From an uncultured Caulobacterales bacterium (GTDB lineage: Bacteria; Pseudomonadota; Alphaproteobacteria; Caulobacterales; Parvularculaceae): 36,508 nt of DNA. The notes beneath the pieces were generated by a model. It was not told the DNA's origin, did not search any database, and saw only the letters and a list, made by a program, of their open reading frames with translations. The position numbers were made by a program, and so were the translations under genes. The stretch lies in the NCBI GenBank assembly GCA_964493225.1, contig CAZBOC010000001.1, positions 12,107-48,614 on the forward strand, in the 5' to 3' direction. Each line of letters opens with the position of its first letter. The first letter of the stretch is position 1. Positions 4,096 to 25,657 of the stretch are shown here, one piece after another.

Positions 4096-5379
4096 ATGAC
4101 GACGCCGACAAAGACGCCGATTTTCCCGACCGCGGCGCACGCGCTTCATTTCGGCGCAGGCCGCATGGAGACGATCATCCGCGTCGCATGGCTGCCGGTC
4201 GTGCTTTTGCTGATCGTGAACATGGCGACGCTGTTCGGCTATGTCTCGGTGATGGCCGAGCGCCTCGTCACTTTCGAAGAGGCGGTGCCGACGTTCCGGG
4301 CGCTTGAACGAATCGGCGCCCAGGCGGCCGAGGCGGGCTGGGACAAGAATCCTCGCGCCATGTCCGCGATCACCGCGGCGAGCCTCTCGCTTCAGTTCAT
4401 CCTGATTTCGGCCTTCATGGCCCCGCTCATTCGCCTCGCCGGCCTTGGCGAACGCCCGGGCCCCGGCCTTTTTCGCATTCCTTTCGGCCCGGACCAGATC
4501 CGCTTCGCTCTCGCGACGATTGCGAGCTTCTTCGCCATTGGCGCGCTCGTTCTGGGACCGATGGCGCTCGTCACCGACGCAACGGCGAGCTATGTTGCGG
4601 ACGCCTTGTCTGAAACGCTCGCTTACTTCCCGGACGAGGCCAGCCTGCATACGATCGAACTGGTTACGAGGCAGGATCTGATCGCGGAAAGCGGCGCGCA
4701 GTGGATCTACGACCTCGCCATTCCCCTGAGCGTCGCCGCGCCCGTCTTCATCGCATTCTGGGGACTGTTGCTGTTTCACTTCAGGCCAACGCAATCGGGA
4801 ACGTCGGCTCGCTGGGCGGTCCGCGCCTTGTCGACTTTCGTCGGCGCGGTTCTCGTCACGGCGCTTTTCTCCGTCTACGTCACCATTTCGGCGGGACTCG
4901 CCTTTGAGCGGAGCATCGCCGGGTTCGCCTTTCTGACGGCCGCTTTCATCGCGCTCTTTTACTACCTGCAACTGCGCGCTGCGCCTTACACCGGGGTTGT
5001 CGTGTGCCGACGGTCGATGGCGCCAGGGCCAAGCCTTTCCGTCACGCGGCGATGGGACATCGTGCGCGTCCTCGCGATCATCGTTCTCCTCACCGCCCTG
5101 CTTTTCGCGATCCAGTTCGTCATCAACGAATATGTCCTTGGGCGGTGGATTGCAGCCGCCGTCAACCAAATGTACGTGGCCGCGGAGTCTTACGCGGTTC
5201 TGCTCTCGGGCGGCGACGGCGCGGGCTGGGTCCTGCCGACCTTCGCCTGGATATGGAACATCACGAAAATCCTGATCAATATTTTCTGGATGCTGTTCTC
5301 GTATGGCGTGGTCGCTGGCCTGTTCGGGGATCTCTACCGCCAGAGCGCGGGTCTCGGTCCCGGGGCGGCCGCCGTTTGA
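4096..5379 (+). CDS. Polytopic inner-membrane protein, function unknown
   Basis: In-frame ATG at 4096 (MTTPTKTPIF...) within ORF 3910..5379. About 8-10 hydrophobic helices (e.g. VAWLPVVLLLIVNMATLFGYV, VFIAFWGLLLFHF, VLAIIVLLTALLFAIQFVI). No catalytic motif recognised. Confidence 0.7.
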   Translation: MTTPTKTPIFPTAAHALHFGAGRMETIIRVAWLPVVLLLIVNMATLFGYVSVMAERLVTFEEAVPTFRALERIGAQAAEAGWDKNPRAMSAITAASLSLQFILISAFMAPLIRLAGLGERPGPGLFRIPFGPDQIRFALATIASFFAIGALVLGPMALVTDATASYVADALSETLAYFPDEASLHTIELVTRQDLIAESGAQWIYDLAIPLSVAAPVFIAFWGLLLFHFRPTQSGTSARWAVRALSTFVGAVLVTALFSVYVTISAGLAFERSIAGFAFLTAAFIALFYYLQLRAAPYTGVVVCRRSMAPGPSLSVTRRWDIVRVLAIIVLLTALLFAIQFVINEYVLGRWIAAAVNQMYVAAESYAVLLSGGDGAGWVLPTFAWIWNITKILINIFWMLFSYGVVAGLFGDLYRQSAGLGPGAAAV

Positions 5380-5439
5380 CGGCGCCCGCCCGCCGCGACC
5401 AGCGAGAGGCGGCTCGCGCACTGGAGCCGGAAACTCTTC

Positions 5440-5453
5440 AATAGTTAACAATT
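5440..5453. promoter_or_regulatory. AT-rich imperfect palindrome in the leader of the GTPase operon (possible operator or promoter element)
   Basis: AATAGTTAACAATT: 6 of 7 half-site positions are symmetric around GTTAAC. It is an isolated AT-rich patch in the 306-nt untranslated gap at 5380-5685. Confidence 0.2.
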
Positions 5454-5685
5454 CACCGGCCTCTCGCAGGGGCCTTACGGCTGGATCATGTTGAGACGCG
5501 CTTATAAAGGAGTATGGGTTCTGCGCTTCGCTGCGCGCCAATTGCGCCCCTTTGACGAGCGCCCCCGCGGTTCCGTCGGCGGAAGATCGTGGGGCGACGT
5601 CTGGGGATGGCGAGCGCGGCCGGGGGATCCGGAGACTGCAATCTACGAAGACGGCGGCCAAGCCGGAAGCGGGAGTCAGACAAGC

Positions 5686-7302
5686 ATGGGGAACAATATG
5701 CAGACGTCGTCCATCGTCTCGCAGCTCGGGGGCCTCGAAGACGCCTGTGCGAAGCTGACGGAGAAATTCCAGATCGACACCGTTCAGGTCGACAAGCTCC
5801 TGAGCGGCGTTCAGAATCTGAAGAAGAGCCAGGACGCGTTCATTCCCCAGATCGCATTCTGCGGCGACGCCGGGGCCGGCAAGACGACGCTTGTCAAGCA
5901 CCTCTTTCACGACCTCTGGCCCGATATCGTCAAGCTTCCGGGCGGGCCGACCGGTTCCATACCGGCGCCCATGGTCATCCGCTTCGAGCCCAAGGATCCG
6001 GGCGGCAACGGCGCGGGCGCGGCGCAATATCAGACGAATTACTTCACACGGGAAGAATATGTCGACACGGTCCTTTGGACCCTTGATAATCTTCTCGACG
6101 AGGCCGACGCCAAGACGCAACAGGCGATCGTCGAGGCCAATGCGAGCCGGACCTTTGAAGACATCAGGAAGGCGTGCGAGGCGGCGCTCGCCGTCGCCGG
6201 CGGGGACCGGCCCGCCCTGCGCAAACATTTCCGCCTCGTCGAAGAAGATTGCCGCGACGCGCAGAAACTCGAAGACGCGTTCGCGTCGTTGAAGCAACAG
6301 AATTACGTCAAGCGCCGCAATGACGCCGCCTCATTGCGCCCCGGGGAAATCGATCCCCTCAACGGCCTTGTCAAGGCGGTCACCGTTGCAGCGCCGGTCG
6401 AGGCGGACGCCATTCCGTGCGCATTTCAAATCATCGACCTGCCAGGCTTCCGCAGCGACGGCGTGCTCGCCCTCCATTACGGAACGAACTACGCCCAGCG
6501 TTACGCGGACGCTTTCGTCGCCTGCATTTCCTCGGCTGACCAGAGCATGGATGAGGAGGGCGTGCGCTATTTCAGCAAGCTTATCGGCCGCGACAGTTTT
6601 TCATCAAGCCGGGCCCGCGTCATCTACGCCCTGACGAAAGCGCTGTCGCCGAACGACGAAAAAAGCGACGTGCGCTTCAGCGAAACCCTGCTGGAGAATC
6701 TCATTTCGACCCACCACTGGACCGAACCCGGATTTTCTCCGGGCGGACAACAGGGCGTCGCGAGTGTTTTCGTGGTCGACGGGCTTGCTGGCGTTCTCCA
6801 TTCCATGCGCTCCGCCTCCGATCTTGGCAAGACTGCGCGAGAACATCTGGGGCTCGCGAGCGACGGCGAATACAAGGCGATCAAGAAGCGGTGGAATTCC
6901 GGCCGAGCCGGGCAGGACAACCAGGCCCTGAAGCTGGCGATCCTCAAATTCGTCACCTATACGATGCCTAAGGAAAATTTTCAGGCCGTGAAGTCCGCGG
7001 CGAACGATCTCGTCGCCAAATACAAGGGCATTGTCGCCGGGATCAAGCCGGAGCAGTCTACCTGGCACGCCCACGCGCTCGCCGGTCTGCAGCATGACGC
7101 GCGCGCGCGCTTCGACGAATGCGCGGCGTCGGTCGAAGGCCAACTCGACGTCCTGCACAGGACCTTGCGCCATGACATCATCGCGAAGCTGAACGCGACG
7201 CTCGCCGTCGGCAACGGCGTGGACGCCGCGCCGGAGCCGTTTCAGCCCGCGCCCGCCGGGGTCGAGCCGCCGCGCCCGGCGGCCGCCGCGGCTCAAAAAT
7301 AA
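5686..7302 (+). CDS. Dynamin-like (large) GTPase family protein
   Basis: ATG at 5686 (MGNNMQTSS...) preceded by gggag. G1/P-loop FCGDAGAGKTTLV; G2-region GPTGSIPAPMVIRF (compare dynamin G.VTRRPLVLQL); G3 CAFQIIDLPGF (dynamin LVDLPG); a degenerate G4 in RVIYALTKAL (TKxD-like). The C-terminus is helical with a Pro/Ala-rich tail. Confidence 0.75.
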   Translation: MGNNMQTSSIVSQLGGLEDACAKLTEKFQIDTVQVDKLLSGVQNLKKSQDAFIPQIAFCGDAGAGKTTLVKHLFHDLWPDIVKLPGGPTGSIPAPMVIRFEPKDPGGNGAGAAQYQTNYFTREEYVDTVLWTLDNLLDEADAKTQQAIVEANASRTFEDIRKACEAALAVAGGDRPALRKHFRLVEEDCRDAQKLEDAFASLKQQNYVKRRNDAASLRPGEIDPLNGLVKAVTVAAPVEADAIPCAFQIIDLPGFRSDGVLALHYGTNYAQRYADAFVACISSADQSMDEEGVRYFSKLIGRDSFSSSRARVIYALTKALSPNDEKSDVRFSETLLENLISTHHWTEPGFSPGGQQGVASVFVVDGLAGVLHSMRSASDLGKTAREHLGLASDGEYKAIKKRWNSGRAGQDNQALKLAILKFVTYTMPKENFQAVKSAANDLVAKYKGIVAGIKPEQSTWHAHALAGLQHDARARFDECAASVEGQLDVLHRTLRHDIIAKLNATLAVGNGVDAAPEPFQPAPAGVEPPRPAAAAAQK

Positions 7303-7360
7303 AGCCGGCGGAAGCGCCGTGTGCGCCGCAGGCCCCGCGGAAAGGTCAGGCAGGAAGAAC

Positions 7361-8323
7361 ATGTTTTCCACACGGAAGTTCATCGAACAGGAAACGGCGC
7401 GAATCAATTATCATGGTTTCGTCGACCAGAACGTGACGGGCCTCGCCGGGCGTCTCAGGCCTATGCCGCGCGAGATCGAGAACCGGATCATCTACCAGAT
7501 TAATACGAATTTTCGCCGCGCATTTCTCCACTCCCTGTCGCTGATCATCAATGACATTTTCGAACAGTTTCGCGCCGACGGGCAGGTGCAGAAAAGCATC
7601 AACCAGGTCGACGATTTCTTCACCGAGAACGGGCTCGGCGAATATCTTCTCGAGCATTATCGCGCGCAGAACATCAGCGCATTCTCGTTCTCCCAATGGT
7701 TTTACGACGTTTATCTGAACGAGATGCAGGAGAAGGTGCTGGGCGTCTCCAGCCGGCTCGCAGGGGAGACCGCGAACAGCCTGAACGAGATCTCCGACCA
7801 TCCGGACCTCAATGATCTTATTCTGCGTGAAGAGGATTTCGGCCCCGACGGCCTGCCGAAACGCTCTACGGCCGTGCGCAAGAAGCAGGACGCGCTCGCC
7901 GCCTTCTTACGGCGCGAGTATAATCAGATCATCGGCGAGAAGATCCGCGCGATCGTCGACCGCTCCGGACAGTTCTTCGCAGACCCGGTTCTTGAGGCGA
8001 TCGAAAGGCTTGTCGGCATGAAGTCGAATCTGCGCGAGCGTCTCATCCGGGTCATCGAAAACCGCCATGATCAGAAAATGAACATCTCCGGTCTGCGCCA
8101 TGCACTGCGCGACGGGCCCGAGACGAGCCATTTCGAAGACCTCGAAGTGATCGTGCTCAAGGCGCTGGGCGTTTCTGAGTATCTGCGCACGCAGCTGTCG
8201 AAGGACAAGGGCCAGGACATCAGGGCGGAACTCAACCAGTTCGCCGCGGTCGCCGACGCCGTCGCCGCCGGGATCGAAAATGAAGCACAGCGCTTTTCCG
8301 GCGCCATCGAGCGTTGGGCGTGA
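7361..8323 (+). CDS. Hypothetical protein, predicted all-helical; partner of the dynamin-like GTPase
   Basis: ATG at 7361 preceded by aggaag, 58 nt after the GTPase stop. 320 aa, rich in charged and helix-forming residues, with no recognisable motif. It has protein-like composition despite the lowest GC in the window. Confidence 0.65.
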   Translation: MFSTRKFIEQETARINYHGFVDQNVTGLAGRLRPMPREIENRIIYQINTNFRRAFLHSLSLIINDIFEQFRADGQVQKSINQVDDFFTENGLGEYLLEHYRAQNISAFSFSQWFYDVYLNEMQEKVLGVSSRLAGETANSLNEISDHPDLNDLILREEDFGPDGLPKRSTAVRKKQDALAAFLRREYNQIIGEKIRAIVDRSGQFFADPVLEAIERLVGMKSNLRERLIRVIENRHDQKMNISGLRHALRDGPETSHFEDLEVIVLKALGVSEYLRTQLSKDKGQDIRAELNQFAAVADAVAAGIENEAQRFSGAIERWA

Positions 8324-8341
8324 GGCCGGCGCCCCGCGGCG

Positions 8342-8638
8342 ATGAGCCCCGGAAAAGCCTCGTTTGAGGTTGCGAAGACGTTCGCACCGCCTTCAAGGAA
8401 CTGGTTTGTCCTCGCCGGCGAGATCGTCGAGGGCTTCGTCGATCAGGGAATGACCATATTGGCTGCAGAACCGGAAGGCGGCGAGGCCCGTCTCGCAATC
8501 TCAAATGTCGAATTCTTATCGTATGGGGAACGCCAGCCTTCGGCGGAGACCGCGCTCGTCATTCAATATGGCTGCGAAAAAGAGCTTGAGCGACTGGAGT
8601 CGCTCGCTCTTGGAGGAAAAACCCTGAGCATCCGTTGA
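8342..8638 (+). CDS. Small hypothetical protein (98 aa), third gene of the GTPase module
   Basis: ATG at 8342, 18 nt after the previous stop. Non-repetitive, protein-like composition. The segment FEVAKTFAPPSRNWFVLAGEIVEGFVDQGMTI resembles the G-x-V-x-G-x-V-xx-G pattern of translation-GTPase domain-2 beta-barrels (weak, by eye). The SD is weak. Confidence 0.55.
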   Translation: MSPGKASFEVAKTFAPPSRNWFVLAGEIVEGFVDQGMTILAAEPEGGEARLAISNVEFLSYGERQPSAETALVIQYGCEKELERLESLALGGKTLSIR

Positions 8639-8660
8639 AGGGGAGGCGGACCGGCGCCCG

Positions 8661-9488
8661 TTACTCCTTCAACGCCGCCTCGTCGGGCATGCCGACAATG
8701 TGGAAGCCGCCGTCGACATGCAGCGTCTCGCCGGTGCAGGACGCGCCGAGGTCGGACAAAAGATAGAGCGCCGCGCCGGCGACGCCCTTCGGATCCGTGT
8801 CGTCGCGAAGCGGGCTCGCCGCACGGTTGAAGGAAAACATGTGGCGCCCGGAGGAAATGCCGGCGGCCGCAAGGGTCTTGATCGGGCCCGCGGAAATCGC
8901 GTTGACGCGGATGTGTCGGGGCCCGAGGTCGCGGGCGATATAGCGCGTCGCAGCCTCAAGGGCGGCCTTTGCGCCGCCCATGACATTGTAGTTCGGGATC
9001 GTCCGCTCACTGCCGAGATAGGTGAGCGTGACCATGGCGCCGCCTTCGGTCATGAGTTCGGCGGCGCGCCGCGCGGCGTCGACGAAGGAGAACGCCGAGA
9101 CGTCCATCGTGTCCCTAAAGATCTGACGCGTCGTGTTTTCGACGAAAGAGCCTTCAAGCGCGGCCTTGTCCGTGAAGGCGATGGCGTGGACGAGAAAATC
9201 GAGCGATCCCCAATTCTCCGCGATCTTCTCGAAACAGGCGGTCATTTCCTCTTCGCTCGTCACGTCGCAGGGAAGGATCATCTGCGCGTTTGAATTCTCG
9301 CCGGCGAGGCTTTCCGCAAGCGGGCGCACGCGGCGCTCCATAGCCTCGTTCACATAGGTGAAGGCGAGCTCGGCGCCTTGCGCGTGGAGCTGCCGGGCGA
9401 TGCTCCAGGCGATCGAATTCTTGTTCGCGACGCCCATGACGAGCCCGCGCTTGCCCTTCATCAGTTCCCCTGTCGGAAAATCGCTCAT
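8661..9488 (-). CDS. fabI: Enoyl-[acyl-carrier-protein] reductase (NADH) FabI
   Basis: 275 aa with LMKGKRGLVMGVANKNSIAW, NVMGGAKAALEAATRYIA (Y-x6-K region) and GPIKTLAA. Confidence 0.95.
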   Translation of the reverse strand: MSDFPTGELMKGKRGLVMGVANKNSIAWSIARQLHAQGAELAFTYVNEAMERRVRPLAESLAGENSNAQMILPCDVTSEEEMTACFEKIAENWGSLDFLVHAIAFTDKAALEGSFVENTTRQIFRDTMDVSAFSFVDAARRAAELMTEGGAMVTLTYLGSERTIPNYNVMGGAKAALEAATRYIARDLGPRHIRVNAISAGPIKTLAAAGISSGRHMFSFNRAASPLRDDTDPKGVAGAALYLLSDLGASCTGETLHVDGGFHIVGMPDEAALKE

Positions 9489-9530: not shown

Positions 9531-9719
9531 TCAAGAAGCGCCGCCGGCAAGGATGATCACCAGAATGAAGTAGGCGAGCCAGATCAGGGCGTAAAGCCCG
9601 AATCGCAGGGGCCTCTCAGCCGCGAGGAGCCGTTCCTTCAAGACGAGGCGGAACCACCACGCTCCCGCGAACGCGACCAGCGCGGCGACGAGAACAACGA
9701 CGACGGAGGGACCCGCCAT
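9531..9719 (-). CDS. Possible small two-helix membrane protein (62 aa) between fabB and fabI
   Basis: MAGPSVVVVLVAALVAFAGAWWF...FGLYALIWLAYFILVIILAGG. It has two clear hydrophobic helices and fills the 237-bp fabB-fabI gap on the same strand. The SD-like gggagg lies directly against the ATG, so spacing is poor. Confidence 0.4.
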   Translation of the reverse strand: MAGPSVVVVLVAALVAFAGAWWFRLVLKERLLAAERPLRFGLYALIWLAYFILVIILAGGAS

Positions 9720-16833: not shown

Positions 16834-16891
16834 GAATGCGGCCTTTTCTTAAAGGTTAACTTCAAGTAATGTCGTGCCATTGGAGAATCTA

Positions 16892-17695
16892 ATGCGATAT
16901 GCGACGCCAACGCGCAATAGGATCCGATGGGGTCGAGCCGTCGCCGCGCCAGTCGCCGCCGCGGGCCTCGCGATCCAGTCCTGCGCGGCCATAGGCGGCG
17001 GGCGGGCGCAGCCTGATCTCGTCGGAGACGAACCTTCGGAACTGAACTGGAGTTTCGCCGACGCGGCGCGCCTGCAGGACGAAATCGCTGATCTGAAATC
17101 GGAAAACGCGAAGTTGAAGGCGGAATTGGCGAGCCTGGAGCGCGCGAAGAAAGAGGCGGAAGCCGAGGCGAACGAAATCGCCAGGAGACGGGCGGCGACG
17201 GCCGTCTCTCAGGCCAAGGCGACGCTTTCGCCCGCCGGCGAGGCGCGCGCGCCATCGAAAACGGTGATCGCGGCGGCCGACATCGACCGGGCGCTCGCGG
17301 ATGCGCCGCCGCCCGTCGAAGCCTCGCCCCGTCTGGTCAAGCCTTCCTTTTCCGACGAAAAGGCGGTGTTTGAAAACGAAGCCGCCTCGGGCGAGGTTCG
17401 TTTGACGGCGGCGCTGTTCGGCGTGCACCTCGCGTCCTACAAGACCCTTGAGAAGGCGCGGGCCGGGTGGAGCGAATTGCAGCGGGCCTTTCCCGACGAA
17501 CTCGGCCTGCTTGAGCCCAGGATCGAACAGGTCATGATCCCGGGAAGGGGCGAGTTTCTGCGCCTTATCGGCGGCGGCTTCTCTTCGCAGGACAAGGCAT
17601 TGTCCCTGTGCAAACTTTTGCGCGACAAGGGAAAATACTGCGAAGTCGCGGGTTTTCGCGGCGAACGGCTCTCCGTCGTCGAGGCCTCAGGCTGA
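16892..17695 (+). CDS. SPOR domain-containing protein with an N-terminal coiled coil
   Basis: ATG at 16892 after ggaga. Coiled-coil LQDEIADLKSENAKLKAELASLERAKKEAEAEA. C-terminal SPOR-like FGVHLASYKTLEKARAGW...FLRLIGGGFSSQDKALSLCKLLRDKGKYCEV. Confidence 0.8.
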   Translation: MRYATPTRNRIRWGRAVAAPVAAAGLAIQSCAAIGGGRAQPDLVGDEPSELNWSFADAARLQDEIADLKSENAKLKAELASLERAKKEAEAEANEIARRRAATAVSQAKATLSPAGEARAPSKTVIAAADIDRALADAPPPVEASPRLVKPSFSDEKAVFENEAASGEVRLTAALFGVHLASYKTLEKARAGWSELQRAFPDELGLLEPRIEQVMIPGRGEFLRLIGGGFSSQDKALSLCKLLRDKGKYCEVAGFRGERLSVVEASG

Positions 17696-21390: not shown

Positions 21391-23235
21391 TTACGAGCAT
21401 GACGCCTCCCGCTTCATTTCCAGTGCGAGCCATTCGTCCTCGGCCTCGGACAGGCGAGCCTCGGCCCTGGCGAGGGCGTCGGCGAGTTTTGCGAATTCGT
21501 CCGGGTTCTTCTCATAAAGCGCCTGGTCGGCGAGGGCGTCGTTCGCCGCAGCGATCTCGGCCTCGAGCCTCGCGATCTCGCCCGGTAATTTTTCAAGCGC
21601 GTACTTCTCCTTGTAGGAAAGGCGCGCCGAGGCGTTCTTCGGCCGTGCGGGCCGACCTTCGGATCCGTCAGCGTTTCGCGGCTTTTTTGATTCGTGTACC
21701 GAGTATCTATTCGCTCCCGGGCTCTCGAAGCCGGGGGCGCTCCCGCGCTGGCGAACCATGTCGTCATAGCCCCCTGGATACTCGATCCAGGTTCCCGCGC
21801 GGCCCTCGGGGTCGGTGGTGACGATGCTGGTGACGATATGATCCAGAAATGCGCGATCATGACTGACGAGGAGAAGGGTGCCCGAATAGTCGGCGAGCAT
21901 TTCCTCCAGGAGCTCCAGCGTTTCGAGGTCAAGGTCGTTCGTCGGTTCATCGAGGACGAGGAGGTTCGATCGCTTCGCCATGGCGGCGGCGCGCGCGAGC
22001 CGGCCGCGTTCGCCGCCGGAAAGCGCGCCGACCGGCGCGCGCCATTGTTCGGGTGCGAAGAGAAAATCCTTCAGATATGTCGAGACGTGCCGTTTCGCGC
22101 CGCCGATCTCGACCCAGTCGCCGCGTCCGTCCGTGATCGCGTCGGCGACGCTCTCGTCGTCGCGCAACCCCGCGCGCCGCTGGTCGAGGGAGACGATGTC
22201 GAGATTGGTCCCGAGACTGACCGCGCCGTCATCGGGGGCGATCACGCCCGTCAACAGCTTCACGAGCGTCGTCTTGCCTGCGCCGTTCGGGCCGATAAGG
22301 CCCACCCGGTCGCCGCGGGCGATCTCGATGCTGAAATCGTCGACAATACGCCGTTCCCCGTAGGACTTTGAGACGCCTTCCGCGACCATGACCTGTTTGC
22401 CGGAGGCGTCGGCGGCGGCGGTCGTGAATTTCACCGAGCCTTGCGCCGTTCGTTCGCCTCGCCGCCTCGCGCGCATCTCGTCAAGCTCGCGCATTCGCCG
22501 GACGTTGCGCTTGCGCCGCGCCGTCACCCCGTAACGCACCCAGTCTTCCTCGGCCGCGATCTTCCGGTCCAGTTTGTGGCGCTCGCGTTCCTCCTCCTCC
22601 AGCAGCTGGTCGCGCCAGGCCTCGAAGGCGGCGAAACCCCGGTCCAGCGATCTCGTCCGGCCACGGTCTATCCAGACCGTCTGTGTCGTGACCTTTTCCA
22701 GAAACCGCCTGTCGTGGCTGATGACGACGACCGCGGCGGGCGACGCCCGCAACGTCTCCTCAAGCCAGCCGATCGCAGGCAGATCGAGATGGTTCGTCGG
22801 CTCGTCGAGGAGGAGAATGTCGGGCTCGGCCGCCAGCAGGCGGGCGATCGCCGCGCGCCGCGCTTCTCCGCCGGACACAAGAGCGGGATCGGCCCGCCGG
22901 TCGACGCCGAGCGCGTCCATCAGACGCCGGGCCGCGGCCGGGTCGCTCGTCTCGTTCAGGTCCGCCTCGACATAGGCCCCGAGCGTCTCAAAGCCCGACA
23001 GGTCAGGCGCCTGTTCGAGATATCCCGTTGTCGCGCCTGGGTCGACAAAGCGCCGGCCGGCGTCCGGCTCGACGAGACCGGCCGCGATCTTCAAAAGGGT
23101 CGACTTGCCGGATCCGTTGCGTCCGACAAGCGCGATGCGATCACGTGGATTGACGATCAACGACGCGCCTGCGAGCAGCGGGTCGCCGCCGAAGGATAAC
23201 TCCATGTCGGCTAGGGTCAGAAGCGGCGGAGCCAT
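21391..23235 (-). CDS. ABC-F family ATPase (Uup-like, no transmembrane domain)
   Basis: 614 aa with two Walker A motifs (GRNGSGKST, GPNGAGKTT), two signature motifs (VSGGEARRAA, LSGGERGRLA), two Walker B motifs (LLLDEPTNHLD, LVLDEPTNDLD) and a C-terminal coiled coil. Confidence 0.9.
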   Translation of the reverse strand: MAPPLLTLADMELSFGGDPLLAGASLIVNPRDRIALVGRNGSGKSTLLKIAAGLVEPDAGRRFVDPGATTGYLEQAPDLSGFETLGAYVEADLNETSDPAAARRLMDALGVDRRADPALVSGGEARRAAIARLLAAEPDILLLDEPTNHLDLPAIGWLEETLRASPAAVVVISHDRRFLEKVTTQTVWIDRGRTRSLDRGFAAFEAWRDQLLEEEERERHKLDRKIAAEEDWVRYGVTARRKRNVRRMRELDEMRARRRGERTAQGSVKFTTAAADASGKQVMVAEGVSKSYGERRIVDDFSIEIARGDRVGLIGPNGAGKTTLVKLLTGVIAPDDGAVSLGTNLDIVSLDQRRAGLRDDESVADAITDGRGDWVEIGGAKRHVSTYLKDFLFAPEQWRAPVGALSGGERGRLARAAAMAKRSNLLVLDEPTNDLDLETLELLEEMLADYSGTLLLVSHDRAFLDHIVTSIVTTDPEGRAGTWIEYPGGYDDMVRQRGSAPGFESPGANRYSVHESKKPRNADGSEGRPARPKNASARLSYKEKYALEKLPGEIARLEAEIAAANDALADQALYEKNPDEFAKLADALARAEARLSEAEDEWLALEMKREASCS

Positions 23236-23354
23236 GACGCGATCTACACAGTCTTCCCCATTCGCCGCAAGCGCCGCGCGCCGCCGCGTTCATCAATCGG
23301 CAAGGATGCCGCTGGTAGCCTGCTGCGGCCGCACTATGGGACGCGCCCGTTTCG

Positions 23355-23936
23355 ATGCACCCTTTGACCGCCTATCTGGAGGCCAGCGGCGAGGCTCCGC
23401 CGGAATTCGCCAAACGCGCCGATGTGGATACAGGAAATCTGTACGACATTATTGCAAAACGCGCCCCGATGACTTTATCCTTGGCGCGGCGCATTTCAAA
23501 GGCGACGGCGGGGGCGGTGACTGTGGAGGAACTTTTCGGGCATGCGGGATCGGACGCCGCGCCGGTCATTGACATATCTCAATTCCGGAACGCGGTGGGA
23601 ACATGCGCCCGCTCGATCGGCGGCGTCGAGCCGGCGCGGCTGGCGGCGATCCTCTGCGACGATTTCGCCCAGCAAGGCGTCTCGAGGGTTACGGACAGCC
23701 CGACGAGGGCGGCGGCGCTCATTTCCGAGGCGACGGCGAACCTTTTCGATCTCCTCGGCGATGAAGCGCCGGTTGATCCCGAGGATCGTCTTCGCAAAGC
23801 TCTTCTTTCAGTGCTTCGACAAGCGCTCGCAGAGAACCCGGTTCCTGGGGGGGGCGACCCGGCGCGGAGCAAGGCCGCGATCCGTCAGATGGCGGATCGA
23901 ATCGCCCGCCGATATTTTCACAATTTGAAACCCTGA
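23355..23936 (+). CDS. Hypothetical protein with an N-terminal Cro/YdaS-like helix-turn-helix
   Basis: The first ~65 aa (LTAYLEASGEAPPEFAKRADVDTGNLYDIIAKRAPMTLSLARRISKATAGAVTVEELF) fit a short Cro/CI-type HTH. The remaining ~125 aa match nothing I recognise. Confidence 0.6.
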   Translation: MHPLTAYLEASGEAPPEFAKRADVDTGNLYDIIAKRAPMTLSLARRISKATAGAVTVEELFGHAGSDAAPVIDISQFRNAVGTCARSIGGVEPARLAAILCDDFAQQGVSRVTDSPTRAAALISEATANLFDLLGDEAPVDPEDRLRKALLSVLRQALAENPVPGGGDPARSKAAIRQMADRIARRYFHNLKP

Positions 23937-24155
23937 AGCAATCCGGCGCGAAAACGCTTTCGGCGAGCGCGCGCGCGCTCCGCGCCCGGCGTTTTGAAAG
24001 CCGCCACATCAGCGCGCCCATCTTTGCGGCGTAAATGTCGTCTTCCTGCTCCAACGTTAATTTCCCGTTATGGATGAATCAAGTCTTTCTAAGAGACGCT
24101 CTGGCCTATACACTTAGAATGGTGTGAGTAAGAAATATTTAACAGGAGACGGAAA

Positions 24156-24470
24156 ATGACGAAAAAAGACATCCGCAAGGAACAGCTCGCATTGTTGCGT
24201 TTCGAAAAGCAGATCGCCGGTCTGGCCACGGTTCTCGCCGCCGGCGCGGCGACGTCCGCGTCGGCGAACGACAAGCTCGGCGGCGATGCGGCGAGCCAGG
24301 CTTACGCCGACATCCAGGCTTCCCTCGTCCATCTCGCCGACGTCACGGCGGCTGCTCATGAAAAGTTAAATGTTGAGGCGGTTGAATTGGGTTTTCGCGT
24401 TTCGCAGGTCTTCGGCACGCCGAAACCTGATGGAGGAAGGCTCGTCCGATCGATACTGGGGATTGGATAA
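24156..24470 (+). CDS. Hypothetical protein (104 aa)
   Basis: Well-spaced SD (AGGAG 24144-24148, 7 nt before the ATG at 24156) behind a ~40% GC promoter-like stretch. Ala-rich helical sequence with no motif. Confidence 0.5.
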   Translation: MTKKDIRKEQLALLRFEKQIAGLATVLAAGAATSASANDKLGGDAASQAYADIQASLVHLADVTAAAHEKLNVEAVELGFRVSQVFGTPKPDGGRLVRSILGIG

Positions 24471-24535
24471 CCATCGGCTTTTACGGCGCGGCCCTTGGCG
24501 CAAGCTACGGGCTCGCCCACTGGTCCGGATCGGGT

Positions 24536-24868
24536 TTGATCAAGACCGCGGTCTGGACGCTTTCGGCCGGATGGATTTGTTGTCTCGGCTGGTACGCAGC
24601 ATTCGGAGACACGGAACTCAGCTTCGGATTCGCCGTCATTAATCTTGCGATGGCTGCGCAATTCTGGCGCATGTCTCGTCTGAGGTGGTTTCCGGCGCCG
24701 CTGTTCTTTCTTCACGCGCTGCAGATCGTGAATTATCTTATCGCCTCGGCGCTTTCAATCGGGACCTGGTGGCAGGTTGCTTTGGCGAATCGGATCTTCG
24801 ACGTCGAGGTCGCCTACATTCTTTGCTGCGCACTTTTCCGGATCGCGCGCCGCCGAAAATTTGCTTAA
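24536..24868 (+). CDS. Small polytopic membrane protein (start uncertain)
   Basis: 3-4 hydrophobic helices (AVWTLSAGWICCLGWYAAF, FGFAVINLAMAAQFW, LFFLHALQIVNYLIASAL, VAYILCCALFRI). The first canonical start is TTG at 24536, but the open frame and helix-like sequence extend back to 24431. Confidence 0.5.
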   Translation: MIKTAVWTLSAGWICCLGWYAAFGDTELSFGFAVINLAMAAQFWRMSRLRWFPAPLFFLHALQIVNYLIASALSIGTWWQVALANRIFDVEVAYILCCALFRIARRRKFA

Positions 24869-25372
24869 TCGCGCGTTTGCCGGTGCGTGCGCCCGCGGGC
24901 CCGGCTTTCCGCTTACGTCTCCCGGCCAATCGCCCCTTGCGCGCGCTTCCCTGGAAAACCCTTTCGCCGCTTCTTGGATCCGCGAGTCGCGCTCACCCCC
25001 GCGGCTTCGCTCCCCGCGACCTTGGCGAAATGCGATCAAGGCACAAAGTTGATCGGTGCAAAGATGGCCGGGCTGTATCCGCATGCGGTGAATGGCAAGC
25101 GCATTCACGCCCGGCCGAACCCGAGCGGGCCCGGACGTTTGGCTGCCAGCTGTTCTTTTTCGCTCTTGGAGCGCCGGCGACCAAGAGATCAGCGCGCGCA
25201 TCTTGCGAGGTTCGGGCGCCGCGCCCGTCGGCCGCACCTGTCAGCCGTCCGAGGCCAAGGCTGCTAACAGATTGAAAAATAACCCAATTTTGATTTTTTA
25301 GGCTTGTCATGCCGCATGCGTTTCAATCACGATACGCGACGACGCGCTAAGGAGCAGCAAGCGAGGTTCGCC

Positions 25373-25657
25373 ATGACGGAAGCATCTCTCGAATACCGCT
25401 CGCCAATGGAGAAGCTGATTCGCGGCTACCGACTGGCGACGGCGGAAATACTCTACAAGATGCCGGACCATCCTTCGCTGCTGCAAAGCTACGTGTGGCA
25501 GGATTACGACATCGCGCCGAAATATCCCGTGCTGCGCCGGTTTCTCGATTTCTGGACGACCGAACTGGACGGTCCCATTCACTCCGTCAAGGTCGCCGGA
25601 AAAACATTGATTTCACCCTCGGAATTCCGTGCGGGAGCAGGGCTCTATCTGCAATAG
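25373..25657 (+). CDS. Usg-like family protein
   Basis: 94 aa from the ATG at 25373. [57 protein letters not shown] matches the conserved alphaproteobacterial Usg-like pattern. Confidence 0.8.

What the first reader, a model, noticed from the sequence alone, without database searches (positions are those of the whole stretch)
5686..8638. Low-GC three-gene module (dynamin-like GTPase, helical partner, small beta-rich protein) among housekeeping genes: candidate undescribed GTPase system
Three same-strand ORFs separated by 58 nt and 18 nt look like one operon. A (5686-7302, 538 aa) has dynamin-type G motifs. B (7361-8323, 320 aa) and C (8342-8638, 98 aa) have no motif I recognise. The genes around them are core functions: trmFO upstream (beyond the 4096-5379 membrane-protein gene) and the fabI-fabB-fabA cluster immediately downstream. 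Hand counts of G+C in four consecutive 60-nt lines of gene B (7501-7740) give 26, 33, 35 and 27 out of 60 (about 50%), against 41 of 60 in fabI (8701-8760). The module is therefore compositionally foreign, consistent with horizontal acquisition, although no integrase or transposase flanks it. Bacterial dynamin-like proteins are known as membrane remodellers and as the components of the Eleos (LeoA/LeoBC) anti-phage system, but those are built from several dynamin-like proteins. One GTPase plus two unrelated small partners is an architecture I cannot assign to any named system.
Basis: partly seen in the sequence, partly recalled or inferred. Interest (0 to 1): 0.85.

Follow-up and report, generated by a model that had tools for sequence, protein, structure and literature searches.

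The report
Split dynamin-like GTPase gene pair
Two adjacent genes together encode one dynamin-like protein that has been cut into two chains; the pair is a rare, vertically inherited core gene pair of a small group of marine alphaproteobacteria, not a foreign three-gene defence module, and the third small gene is a strain-specific orphan.

Summary

- **A (538 aa)** is a very divergent dynamin-superfamily NTPase.
- **B (320 aa)** is not an unrelated partner. Its profile aligns with the C-terminal helical region of the same single-chain 820-890 aa dynamin-like proteins whose N-terminal part matches A. A+B concatenated (858 aa) aligns end to end with them. The A/B junction falls in their variable low-complexity linker. 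A-B is therefore a split dynamin-like protein.
- **The pair** is adjacent, with its own ribosome-binding site before B, in all seven independent loci found.
- **C (98 aa)** has no homologue anywhere. It sits in a 337-bp stretch that is only 18 bp in the closest relative.
- **"Compositionally foreign" is refuted.** GC3 of A and B tracks the host in five genomes of 51-65% GC. B's low GC is a codon-position-2 (amino-acid) effect.
- **Selection and synteny.** dN/dS is 0.08 for A and 0.04 for B, like the FabI/B/A genes. A-B-fabI-fabB-fabA order is conserved.
- **No defence or mobile-element link.** There are no defence-profile, phage or plasmid hits.
- **The family is extremely rare**, about ten genomes.

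The function, presumably nucleotide-driven membrane remodelling, is inferred and not shown.

The parts
5686..7302 (+). Gene A, 538 aa: N-terminal part of a split dynamin-like protein. It has two N-terminal helices, an enlarged G domain with a helical insert, C-terminal helices and a Pro/Ala-rich tail.
   Evidence: ORF. Only 7 close homologues among 5.8e9 proteins. The exhaustive profile search finds 3 family clusters, then bona fide Dynamin_N proteins as the next hits. hhalign to P0023: probability 97%, E 3e-11 over A 55-426. Foldseek top hits are all dynamin superfamily. Secondary structure comes from a low-confidence model.
5863..5889 (+). G1 / P-loop GDAGAGKTT (A residues 60-68)
   Evidence: G60, G65 and K66 are nearly invariant and T68 is invariant in the family, and all are conserved in the fused relatives.
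6436..6447 (+). G3 / switch 2 DLPG (A residues 251-254)
   Evidence: D251, L252 and P253 are invariant. G254 is replaced by A or T in the second subclade.
7207..7299 (+). Low-complexity Pro/Ala-rich C-terminal tail of A (residues 508-538). It corresponds to the variable linker of the single-chain relatives.
   Evidence: 19% identity among orthologues against 43-84% elsewhere. It aligns with the variable, gap-rich linker columns of P0021, P0023 and L011.
7303..7360 (+). A-B spacer (58 nt) with the Shine-Dalgarno-like AGGAAG at 7352-7357
   Evidence: Purine-rich SD-like sequences lie 4-9 nt before the B ATG in all seven loci, with spacers of 14-58 nt.
7361..8323 (+). Gene B, 320 aa, all-helical: C-terminal (stalk / effector-like) part of the split dynamin-like protein
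   Evidence: ORF. 9 homologues of 320-323 aa, always next to an A homologue. hhalign to P0021 569-815 and P0023 617-791: E about 5e-6, score 49-51, against shuffles at 14.7 +/- 2.3 and the reversed sequence at 18-19. HMMER gives 15-23 bits, colinear, with negative controls at or below 2.3 bits. The all-helical model is low confidence.
7679..7717 (+). Aromatic-rich segment AFSFSQWFYDVYL (B residues 107-119), nearly all positions invariant. Candidate surface or membrane-contact element (inferred).
   Evidence: Invariant columns A107 S109 F110 S111 W113 F114 Y115 Y118 L119. The segment is partly deleted in the fused relatives. A and B have no transmembrane segment.
8324..8660 (.). 337-bp stretch between the B stop and the fabI stop carrying ORF C (8342-8638, +). 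It is strain-specific and NOT part of the conserved module.
   Evidence: The same interval is 18 bp in L008 and about 49 bp in L002. C has no homologue among 5.8e9 proteins other than identical copies in three assemblies of one project. GC3 is 0.62 against 0.76-0.83 for the neighbouring genes. No Pfam, NCBIfam, PADLOC, PHROG or PDB match.

Best explanation
A and B together are one dynamin-like protein (DLP) encoded as two polypeptides.

A carries two N-terminal helices, the nucleotide-binding G domain and the first set of C-terminal helices. B supplies the remaining helical region. In single-chain relatives that region follows a disordered linker. The gene was split (or the relatives fused) at that linker.

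Shown:
- Both halves are homologous to, and colinear with, the same single-chain proteins.
- The two genes are strictly adjacent, and B has its own ribosome-binding site, in seven loci.
- The pair is under strong purifying selection.
- Synteny with fabI-fabB-fabA is conserved, and composition matches the host.

Inferred:
- The two chains are co-translated from one mRNA and assemble 1:1, so that B's helices complete the stalk/neck bundle begun by A. This is how the C-terminal effector helices pack back on the middle domain and G domain in every solved DLP.
- Nucleotide binding and G-domain dimerisation then drive a conformational change in this bundle. The change acts on a membrane (fusion, fission or repair) from the cytoplasmic side as a peripheral protein.

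The pair is a lineage-restricted housekeeping function of a few Parvularculales-like Alphaproteobacteria. It is not a mobile or defence module. ORF C is a strain-specific orphan of doubtful coding status and takes no part.
For: **Identity of A**
- The exhaustive profile search of 1.84e9 representatives finds only 3 family clusters. The next hits (P0021, P0023, P0022) pass or approach the Pfam Dynamin_N threshold: 43.9 and 51.6 bits against a cut-off of 27, and 24 bits for the fragment P0022.
- hhalign of A to P0023: probability 97%, E 3e-11 over 324 columns.
- HMMER gives 55-61 bits, E 5e-12 to 5e-10 at full database size.
- 8 of 10 family members hit Dynamin_N below threshold.
- The Foldseek top hits are C. 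jejuni DLP, SynDLP, mitofusins, Drp1, Vps1 and BDLP.

**Identity of B**
- hhalign to the C-terminal 170-250 residues of both P0021 and P0023 gives E about 5e-6.
- Scores are 49-51, against 14.7 +/- 2.3 (maximum 22.6) for 100 shuffles and 18-19 for the reversed sequence.
- RdcB and RdcA as negative controls score 12.6-15.8.
- HMMER hits are colinear, 15-23 bits.

**Colinearity**
- Concatenated A+B (856-870 aa) aligns end to end with the 818-894 aa proteins. The junction lies in their gap-rich linker.

**Operon**
- A-B are adjacent in all seven independent loci (window, L001, L002, L004, L006-L008; L003, L005, L009 duplicate these). Spacers are 14-58 nt, with SD-like sequences.

**Core-gene behaviour**
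- dN/dS is 0.083 for A and 0.037 for B, against FabI 0.076, FabB 0.065 and FabA 0.055. dS values are similar.
- Identities parallel those of the fab genes.
- GC3 tracks the host in five genomes.
- A-B-fabI-fabB-fabA order is conserved in L002 and L008.

**Precedent**
- A DLP split into two genes has been described: LeoC/LeoB (PMC4159319).
Against: - No biochemical or structural proof that A and B bind each other. Both structure models are poor (pLDDT 47 and 56), so the Foldseek result for A rests on local 3Di similarity (TM about 0.29), and B gave no fold match.
- The B-to-fused-protein homology is at 86-89% hhalign probability. It would not be significant in a blind database-wide HMMER search. 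It is convincing only as a targeted, colinear test with controls.
- Catalytic motifs are imperfect. G4 is not NKxD. The position of the catalytic G2 threonine is I or M in the window's subclade. The G3 glycine is A or T in the other subclade.
- There is no hydrophobic paddle or transmembrane segment, so membrane action is an assumption carried over from the superfamily.
- Helical parts are more conserved than the G domain. This is atypical for DLPs and not explained by the model.
Confidence: 0.7

Rival explanations
1. A-B is a soluble regulatory GTPase pair of the RdcA/RdcB (YjdA/YjcZ) kind. A dynamin-like NTPase with an accessory chain docks on a signalling or other protein according to nucleotide state, rather than remodelling membranes.
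For: - Both proteins are soluble, with no paddle or transmembrane segment.
- The DLP is solitary, not tandem.
- The described rdcA-rdcB operon has the same outline of one DLP plus a partner of about 33 kDa, and acts on a diguanylate cyclase (PMC6510439).
- In the second subclade (L004, L006, L007) hybrid histidine kinase / response regulator genes lie just downstream.
- Degenerate catalytic motifs would suit a switch better than a mechano-enzyme.
Against: [quoted passage not shown]
- B is part of the DLP body itself, not an accessory factor.
- The kinase neighbourhood is on the opposite strand, confined to one subclade of related genomes, and absent from the window's subclade.
Confidence: 0.15
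2. B is an unrelated helical partner, and the similarity to the C-terminal regions of P0021/P0023 is a helical-composition artefact.
For: - hhalign probabilities are below 90%, with very low alignment diversity (Neff 1.8) and single-sequence templates.
- HMMER bit scores of 15-23 are not significant database-wide.
- B's fold search found only generic helical bundles.
Against: - Two divergent fused proteins are hit in the same C-terminal place, colinearly.
- Scores are about 15 SD above composition-preserving shuffles and about 2.7 times the reversed-sequence score.
- The helical negative controls RdcA and RdcB score at noise.
- MAFFT aligns A+B end to end with the fused proteins. Shared motifs include AGR..(H/P)xE(I/L)E..(V/I)I...N..(F/I/L)R..F.
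- Summed lengths match: 858 aa against 818-894 aa.
Confidence: 0.1
3. A-B, with or without C, is a new anti-phage defence system related to Eleos or DynA.
For: - Bacterial DLPs do act in phage defence: Eleos LeoA/LeoBC (bioRxiv 10.1101/2022.05.11.491447) and DynA (PMC12998192).
- The best PADLOC hits, all far below significance, are LeoA and LeoBC.
Against: - The PADLOC hits cover only the P-loop region (E 1.3e-3 and 9.5e-3, 13-16 bits).
- There is no second DLP gene.
- No defence genes lie in any of the seven neighbourhoods.
- No homologues in phage, plasmid or viral-contig collections.
- dN/dS is 0.04-0.08 and synteny with fab genes is conserved.
- GC3 matches the host.
- Distribution is confined to about ten related genomes rather than scattered by transfer.
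Confidence: 0.04
4. C is a genuine third subunit acquired recently by this strain.
For: - C is on the same strand, 18 nt after B. The 98-codon ORF fills most of the inserted stretch.
- The identical sequence was recovered in three further assemblies.
Against: - No homologue at all.
- Absent from the 88%-identical relative and from all other loci.
- GC3 is 0.62, equal to its GC1 and unlike every neighbouring gene.
- By my estimate, an ORF of this length has roughly a 10-15% chance of occurring in six frames of 57% GC sequence.
- The three extra copies come from one sequencing project and are the same strain.
Confidence: 0.03

Closest known systems
Single-chain bacterial dynamin-like proteins of the P0021/P0023/L011 type (uncharacterised, 818-894 aa, Pfam Dynamin_N; probably cyanobacterial, judged from 40% GC and Pkinase-WD40, FIST and DJ-1 neighbours)
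   Same: The whole length of A+B is colinear with them. The G domain has the same helical insert, the PTV(I/V) switch-1 strand and the DLPG motif. The C-terminal helical region is homologous to B.
   Different: - They are one polypeptide, with a 60-100-residue low-complexity linker where A ends and B begins.
- Identity to A+B is only 18-19%.
- They lack B's aromatic segment.
- Their function is unknown.
SynDLP (Slr0869) of Synechocystis, PDB 7ZW6 / 9EM9
   Same: - It is a solitary (not tandem) soluble bacterial DLP with a two-helix N-terminal bundle element, an enlarged G domain and a helical stalk without a hydrophobic paddle (PMC10104851).
- It is the second and third best Foldseek hit of the A model.
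- It is the only PDB sequence hit of P0023 beyond the P-loop (E 7.5e-4).
   Different: - It is a single chain of 812 aa.
- There is no detectable sequence similarity to A or B themselves.
- The Cys8-Cys777 disulphide has no counterpart, because B has no invariant Cys.
- There is no KGK-domain gene downstream.
LeoC/LeoB of ETEC (split DLP of the LeoABC / Eleos type)
   Same: This is a described case in which one DLP is encoded by two adjacent genes, conserved as such in several bacteria (PMC4159319).
   Different: - The Leo split lies inside the G domain, between switch 1 and switch 2. Here it lies after the middle helices, at the linker.
- LeoC has a membrane anchor and LeoB a predicted membrane-binding region. 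A and B have none.
- LeoBC works with a second DLP, LeoA. Here there is none.
- PADLOC LeoA and LeoBC profiles do not match beyond the P-loop.
RdcA/RdcB (YjdA/YjcZ, also CrfC) of E. coli
   Same: It is a two-gene operon of a soluble, solitary dynamin-like GTPase followed by a soluble partner of about 300 aa. The partner binds the GTPase (PMC6510439).
   Different: - RdcA is already a full-length 742-aa DLP.
- RdcB is unrelated to B.
- A matches RdcA only weakly, in the G domain (probability 18%).
BDLP (Nostoc), C. jejuni DLP1/DLP2, mitofusins
   Same: They share the general plan of N-terminal helices, G domain and a helical neck/trunk that folds back. They are among the top Foldseek hits of the A model (5oxf_B E 8.8e-7, MFN2 1.3e-3, BDLP 2j68 E 2.4).
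   Different: - They have a hydrophobic paddle or transmembrane region.
- The bacterial ones are usually encoded as tandem DLP pairs.
- There is no sequence-level match.

Membership tests
Dynamin superfamily / bacterial dynamin-like proteins | P-loop G1 motif GxxxxGK[ST] | tested here: met
   GDAGAGKTT at A residues 60-68. G60, G65 and K66 are nearly invariant and T68 is invariant in the family, and all are conserved in the fused relatives.
Dynamin superfamily / bacterial dynamin-like proteins | Catalytic switch-1 (G2) threonine | tested here: inconclusive
   By alignment with RdcA (catalytic T103; PMC6510439), the equivalent position is T in subclade 2 and in the fused relatives. It is I or M in the window's subclade, with a nearby Ser.
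Dynamin superfamily / bacterial dynamin-like proteins | Switch-2 (G3) DxxG | tested here: met
   DLPG at A residues 251-254 in the window. Note DLPA in L004 and DLPT in L007 in the other subclade.
Dynamin superfamily / bacterial dynamin-like proteins | G4 (N/T)(K/R)xD guanine-specificity motif | tested here: not met
   The window has TKAL. The family has [TN][KQHR][AS][ILV]. The fused relatives have NKW[HY][DE] and NKFFD. Base specificity is therefore unproven.
Dynamin superfamily / bacterial dynamin-like proteins | Pfam Dynamin_N (PF00350) at or above the gathering score | tested here: not met
   A scores 14.9 bits against a cut-off of 27, but over the whole domain span (56-291 to 1-145/168). 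8 of 10 family members hit below threshold, best E 4.6e-5. The nearest outgroup relatives do pass, at 43.9-51.6 bits. Membership is therefore transitive.
Dynamin superfamily / bacterial dynamin-like proteins | Large G domain flanked by helical neck/BSE and stalk/trunk; fold similarity to solved DLPs | tested here: inconclusive
   Predicted helices lie at A 7-47 and 367-507, and B is all helical. The Foldseek top 3 are DLPs at E below 4e-6, with 17 of the top 20 hits in the dynamin superfamily. The models are poor (pLDDT 47 and 56, TM about 0.29). B has no fold hit.
Dynamin superfamily / bacterial dynamin-like proteins | GTP hydrolysis stimulated by assembly; membrane binding or remodelling | not testable with these tools
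   Needs purified A-B, nucleotide hydrolysis assays and liposome assays.
Eleos (LeoA + LeoBC) anti-phage system | Significant match to LeoA and LeoBC profiles; two DLP genes in one operon | tested here: not met
   PADLOC LeoA E 1.3e-3 (15.9 bits) and LeoBC E 9.5e-3 (13.1 bits), both in the P-loop region only. The window and the related loci carry only one G-domain gene.
Eleos (LeoA + LeoBC) anti-phage system | Membrane anchor or paddle in LeoBC; defence-island or mobile context | tested here: not met
   No hydrophobic segment in A or B. Neighbours are housekeeping genes. No phage, plasmid or viral homologues.
RdcA/RdcB (YjdA/YjcZ) | Partner protein homologous to RdcB (YjcZ family) | tested here: not met
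   hhalign of the B profile against E. coli RdcB: probability 0.1%, score 12.6. No Pfam hit for B at E up to 1.
RdcA/RdcB (YjdA/YjcZ) | GTPase homologous to RdcA over its full length | tested here: not met
   Only a weak G-domain alignment (probability 18%, E 1.3e-3). The HMMER A profile against RdcA gives 2.4 bits.
SynDLP / cyanobacterial KGK-clade DLPs | KGK-domain gene downstream; conserved Cys pair linking the N- and C-terminal bundle helices | tested here: not met
   No KGK (PF08872) hit for C or any neighbour. A has a nearly invariant C21 in its N-terminal helix, but B has no invariant Cys. The definition is taken from PMC5827413 and PMC10104851.
Split DLP of the LeoC/LeoB type | Gene split inside the G domain, between switch 1 and switch 2, with a membrane anchor on the first chain | tested here: not met
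   A contains G1 through G4 and the first C-terminal helices. The split lies at the linker after residue 507. There is no anchor. The definition is taken from PMC4159319.

The most novel reading that the evidence does not exclude
The A-B pair has left the usual dynamin job. Three observations point that way. The helical half B is conserved more tightly than FabI. Each subclade has lost a different canonical catalytic residue. There is no membrane-binding element. Together these would fit a dynamin-derived, stalk-driven scaffold or filament, with A as a nucleotide-sensing cap. That would be a new bacterial cytoskeletal or organising element in stalked or budding Parvularculales. A bactofilin gene next to the pair in one genome and a ParA/MipZ-like gene in another are weak hints.
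Probability: 0.1. Interest if true: 0.7.

Novelty: new variant of a known kind. Interest (0 to 1): 0.35.

Why it matters
- It removes a false lead. This is not a foreign three-gene defence candidate.
- It gives a natural, anciently fixed example of a dynamin-like protein divided at the tip of its helical region. Nature has here done the experiment of supplying the C-terminal effector/stalk half in trans. That could help dissect how the helical bundle and the G domain of DLPs communicate.
- It defines a very rare, deep branch of the dynamin superfamily that no Pfam, NCBIfam or PADLOC model recognises.
- Its helical half is conserved more strongly than its G domain, which is the reverse of the usual pattern.
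- The practical importance is limited, because the family is confined to about ten uncultured or little-studied genomes.

Tried and rejected
- **Family scans.** Pfam, NCBIfam, PADLOC and PHROGs scans of A, B, C and the upstream membrane protein gave nothing above threshold.
- **PDB sequence searches.** Searches with the A, B, A+B and C profiles hit only P-loop stretches.
- **Structure prediction.** Both jobs gave poor models (pLDDT 56 for B, 47 for A). The B fold search was uninformative.
- **Collection scans.** The metagenome scan with the B profile found nothing. The viral-contig scans with the A and B profiles found nothing. tblastn against plasmids and phages found nothing. The GTDB species-representative scan found a single locus.
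- **Rfam and promoter/terminator scans of 5300-8800.** No credible RNA element turned up. The consensus matches were unremarkable.
- **Upstream-region alignment.** It showed only a block shared by the two closest genomes, too few sequences to call a motif.
- **Cluster look-up of the fused relatives.** It gave no names or taxonomy.
- **C insert as a mobile element.** I considered and rejected this. The 9-nt direct repeat CCGGCGCCC at its ends is expected by chance in this GC-rich DNA, and no other copy or inverted terminal repeat was found.
- **Upstream gene 4096-5379 as part of the module.** I considered and rejected this, because it has no counterpart in any related locus.

Full report
**1. 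Observation**

The three same-strand ORFs exist at the stated coordinates. A is 5686-7302 (538 aa), B is 7361-8323 (320 aa) and C is 8342-8638 (98 aa). The gaps are 58 and 18 nt. The mechanical ORF for A reaches back to 5488, but the alignment of homologues supports a start at 5686/5698, preceded by GGGAG. The flanks are as described: trmFO, a polytopic membrane protein (79 hydrophobic windows), and fabI-fabB-fabA on the opposite strand.

The 7501-7740 stretch (50.4% GC) is in the lowest 0.3% of 240-nt windows of this 64.7% GC window.

**2. The low GC does not mean foreign DNA**

- GC3 is 0.788 for A and 0.763 for B. The neighbouring genes (trmFO, the upstream membrane-protein gene, fabI, fabB, fabA, the SH3 gene and the 2-hydroxyacid dehydrogenase gene) range from 0.757 to 0.826.
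This reflects a protein rich in I, F, N, E, D and K.
- The same holds in four other genomes of 51-63% GC. There, GC3 of A and B tracks the host genes and GC2 of B is always 0.32-0.36.
- Between the window and its closest relative L008, dS of A (0.88) and B (0.76) is like that of fabB, fabA and the SH3 gene (0.71-0.97).
- dN/dS is 0.083 for A and 0.037 for B, against 0.055-0.076 for FabI, FabB and FabA.
- The order A-B-fabI-(62-aa ORF)-fabB-fabA-SH3-2-hydroxyacid dehydrogenase is kept in L008 (A 87.5%, B 95% identical) and in L002 (66%, 79%).

A-B is therefore an old, vertically inherited resident of this chromosome region.

**3. What belongs together**

- A has only 7 close homologues and B only 9 among 5.8e9 clustered proteins.
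- In every locus that could be read, an A homologue is followed by a B homologue. These are the window, L001, L002/L003, L004/L005/L009, L006, L007 and L008.
- The spacers are 14-58 nt, and each has a purine-rich Shine-Dalgarno-like sequence before an invariant MFST start.
- Nothing else is shared by all loci. The upstream membrane protein of the window has no counterpart elsewhere.

C is different:
- It has no homologue at all, apart from identical copies in three assemblies of one sequencing project.
- It matches no family or structure.
- Its GC3 is 0.62.
- It lies in a 337-bp stretch between the B and fabI stop codons. That stretch is 18 bp in L008 and about 49 bp in L002.

The conserved unit is therefore A-B. 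C is a strain-specific orphan ORF of doubtful coding status.

**4. What A is**

- No curated model reaches threshold. Dynamin_N gives 14.9 bits over the whole G-domain span. LeoA and LeoBC match only at the P-loop.
- An exhaustive HMMER search of 1.84e9 representatives with the family profile found just three family clusters. The next hits were P0021 (818 aa), P0023 (894 aa) and the fragment P0022.
- The two full-length proteins are bona fide Dynamin_N members, at 43.9 and 51.6 bits against a cut-off of 27. The fragment P0022 falls just short at 24 bits.
- hhalign of the A profile against P0023 gives probability 97% and E 3e-11 over A 55-426.
- A wider A profile scores 55-61 bits, E 5e-12 to 5e-10 at full database size.
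- 8 of 10 family members hit Dynamin_N below threshold.
- The AlphaFold model of A is poor (pLDDT 47). Even so, its Foldseek hits are led by C. jejuni DLP (E 8.8e-7), SynDLP and MFN2, followed by MFN1, Drp1, Vps1 and BDLP.

A is therefore a very divergent dynamin-superfamily NTPase.

Its motifs are imperfect:
- G1 is invariant.
- G3 is DLPG here, but DLPA or DLPT in the second subclade.
- G4 is never NKxD.
- The position equivalent to the catalytic threonine of RdcA (T103) is I or M in the window's subclade.

**5. What B is**

B has no family or PDB match. Its model is all-helical but of low confidence, and it has no meaningful fold hit.

I tested the B profile against the same long proteins that match A.
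- It aligns with P0021 residues 569-815 and P0023 residues 617-791. Probability is 86-87% and E is 4-5e-6.
- The scores are 49-51. One hundred composition-preserving shuffles gave 14.7 +/- 2.3 (maximum 22.6), and the reversed sequences gave 18-19.
- The helical controls RdcB and RdcA score 12.6-15.8.
- HMMER independently places B colinearly in the C-terminal regions of P0021, P0023 and L011 at 15-23 bits. The controls score at or below 2.3 bits. These scores are meaningful only because the targets were chosen beforehand.
- Concatenated A+B from four genomes (856-870 aa) aligns end to end with P0021, P0023 and L011 (818-894 aa). A's Pro/Ala-rich tail and the A/B junction fall in the gap-rich low-complexity linker of the single-chain proteins. 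B's N-terminus starts right after that linker.

A-B is therefore one dynamin-like protein in two chains.

The fused relatives come from an organism of about 40% GC. Their neighbours encode DJ-1, FIST and Pkinase-WD40 proteins. P0023 weakly matches SynDLP (E 7.5e-4).

**6. How it probably works**

Shown:
- Homology and colinearity of both halves.
- Obligate adjacency of the two genes.
- Separate translation start signals.
- Strong purifying selection.

Inferred from the common architecture of DLPs (PMC10104851):
- The chains assemble so that B completes the helical stalk/neck bundle begun by A 367-507, and probably A 7-47.
- Nucleotide binding and G-domain dimerisation change the bundle's conformation.
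- The complex acts peripherally on the cytoplasmic membrane.

There is no transmembrane or paddle segment. The nearly invariant, family-specific aromatic segment AFSFSQWFYDVYL of B is a candidate contact element.

Two things remain unexplained. The helical parts (B 1-222 at 58-84% identity, A 351-507 at 43-75%) are more conserved than the G core (37-70%). This is the reverse of the usual DLP pattern. And each subclade lacks a different canonical catalytic residue.

**7. Comparison with known systems**

- **LeoC/LeoB.** A DLP encoded by two genes has been described (PMC4159319). That split lies inside the G domain, the first chain has a membrane anchor, and the pair works with a second DLP, LeoA.
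- **RdcA/RdcB of E. coli.** This has the outline of one soluble DLP plus a partner of about 300 aa (PMC6510439). RdcB is unrelated to B, and RdcA is already full-length.
- **Eleos.** Membership fails on profile matches, gene content, membrane elements and context.
- **Mobile elements.** No phage, plasmid or viral-contig homologues exist.
- **Named host.** The only named host is a Marinicaulis (now Hyphococcus) MAG of the Parvularculaceae. It is also the only hit among 185,579 GTDB species representatives.

**8. Verdict**

The ORFs and the GC counts are correct. The foreign origin and the three-gene unit are not.
The dynamin-like GTPase operon with no named system is right. The horizontal acquisition, the two unrelated partners and the defence candidacy are wrong.
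- I rate it a new variant of a known kind: a split, very divergent, lineage-restricted dynamin-like protein.
- Interest is moderate to low (0.35). It is a neat natural split and an unrecognised deep DLP branch with an unusual conservation pattern. It has no demonstrated function and a tiny distribution.

Noticed in passing
window 23300-25500: This is the lowest-GC stretch of the window (0.57-0.60). It has no ORFs with high GC3. ORFs 23355-23936, 24356-24715(-), 24685-25275 and 24755-25237(-) have no Pfam hit. It is a better candidate for compositionally odd DNA than the A-B genes.
   Followed up: partly
window 9531-9719 (-): A small hydrophobic 62-aa ORF lies between fabI and fabB. It is conserved in L008 (81%) and L002 (67%), and is called as a 62/54-aa gene there. 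It is an unannotated small membrane protein embedded in the fab cluster.
   Followed up: partly
window 8324-8660: The strain-specific insert carrying ORF C has the 9-nt repeat CCGGCGCCC at both ends (8326-8334 and 8651-8659), which is about what chance gives in this GC-rich DNA. A 9-bp hairpin (8633-8641 / 8666-8674) bridges the stop codons of C and fabI.
   Followed up: partly
L004 5248-5829 (-) and L004 9620-13758; L007 2869-6957; L006 1186-4129: In the second subclade (Hyphococcus/Marinicaulis MAG and relatives) a bactofilin gene lies about 560 nt upstream of A. Hybrid histidine kinase / response regulator genes lie just downstream of B.
   Followed up: no
L001 8432-9693 and 12580-13128: On the 2.19-Mb contig, A-B is not next to the fab genes. 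It is preceded on the same strand by a ParA/MipZ-like ATPase gene and a 182-aa ORF. It is followed by another 182-aa ORF that overlaps the end of B, and then by an Mrp antiporter operon.
   Followed up: no
L004 6390-8036, L007 2-1450: The G3 motif of the A orthologues in the second subclade is DLPA or DLPT instead of DLPG, while they keep the switch-1 Thr that the window's subclade lacks. The loss of canonical catalytic residues is therefore mosaic.
   Followed up: partly
L010 137-2800, L011 82-2721: Single-chain 879-890 aa dynamin-like proteins (Dynamin_N 48.5 bits) occur in a metagenomic organism of about 40% GC. They are followed by a 188-aa ORF without a Pfam hit, then by DJ-1/PfpI, FIST and Pkinase-WD40 genes. 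They are the closest fused relatives of A+B.
   Followed up: partly
window 16874-17695 (+) and 21391-23235 (-): A SPOR-domain protein gene and an ABC-F type ATPase gene. The rest of the window downstream of the fab cluster (DUF2141, YceI, ThiF, dUTPase, PanC, AidB-like acyl-CoA dehydrogenase) is ordinary housekeeping. Parts of it recur in L002 (DUF2141, ThiF, dUTPase, PanC) and L008 (DUF2141, YceI).
   Followed up: no
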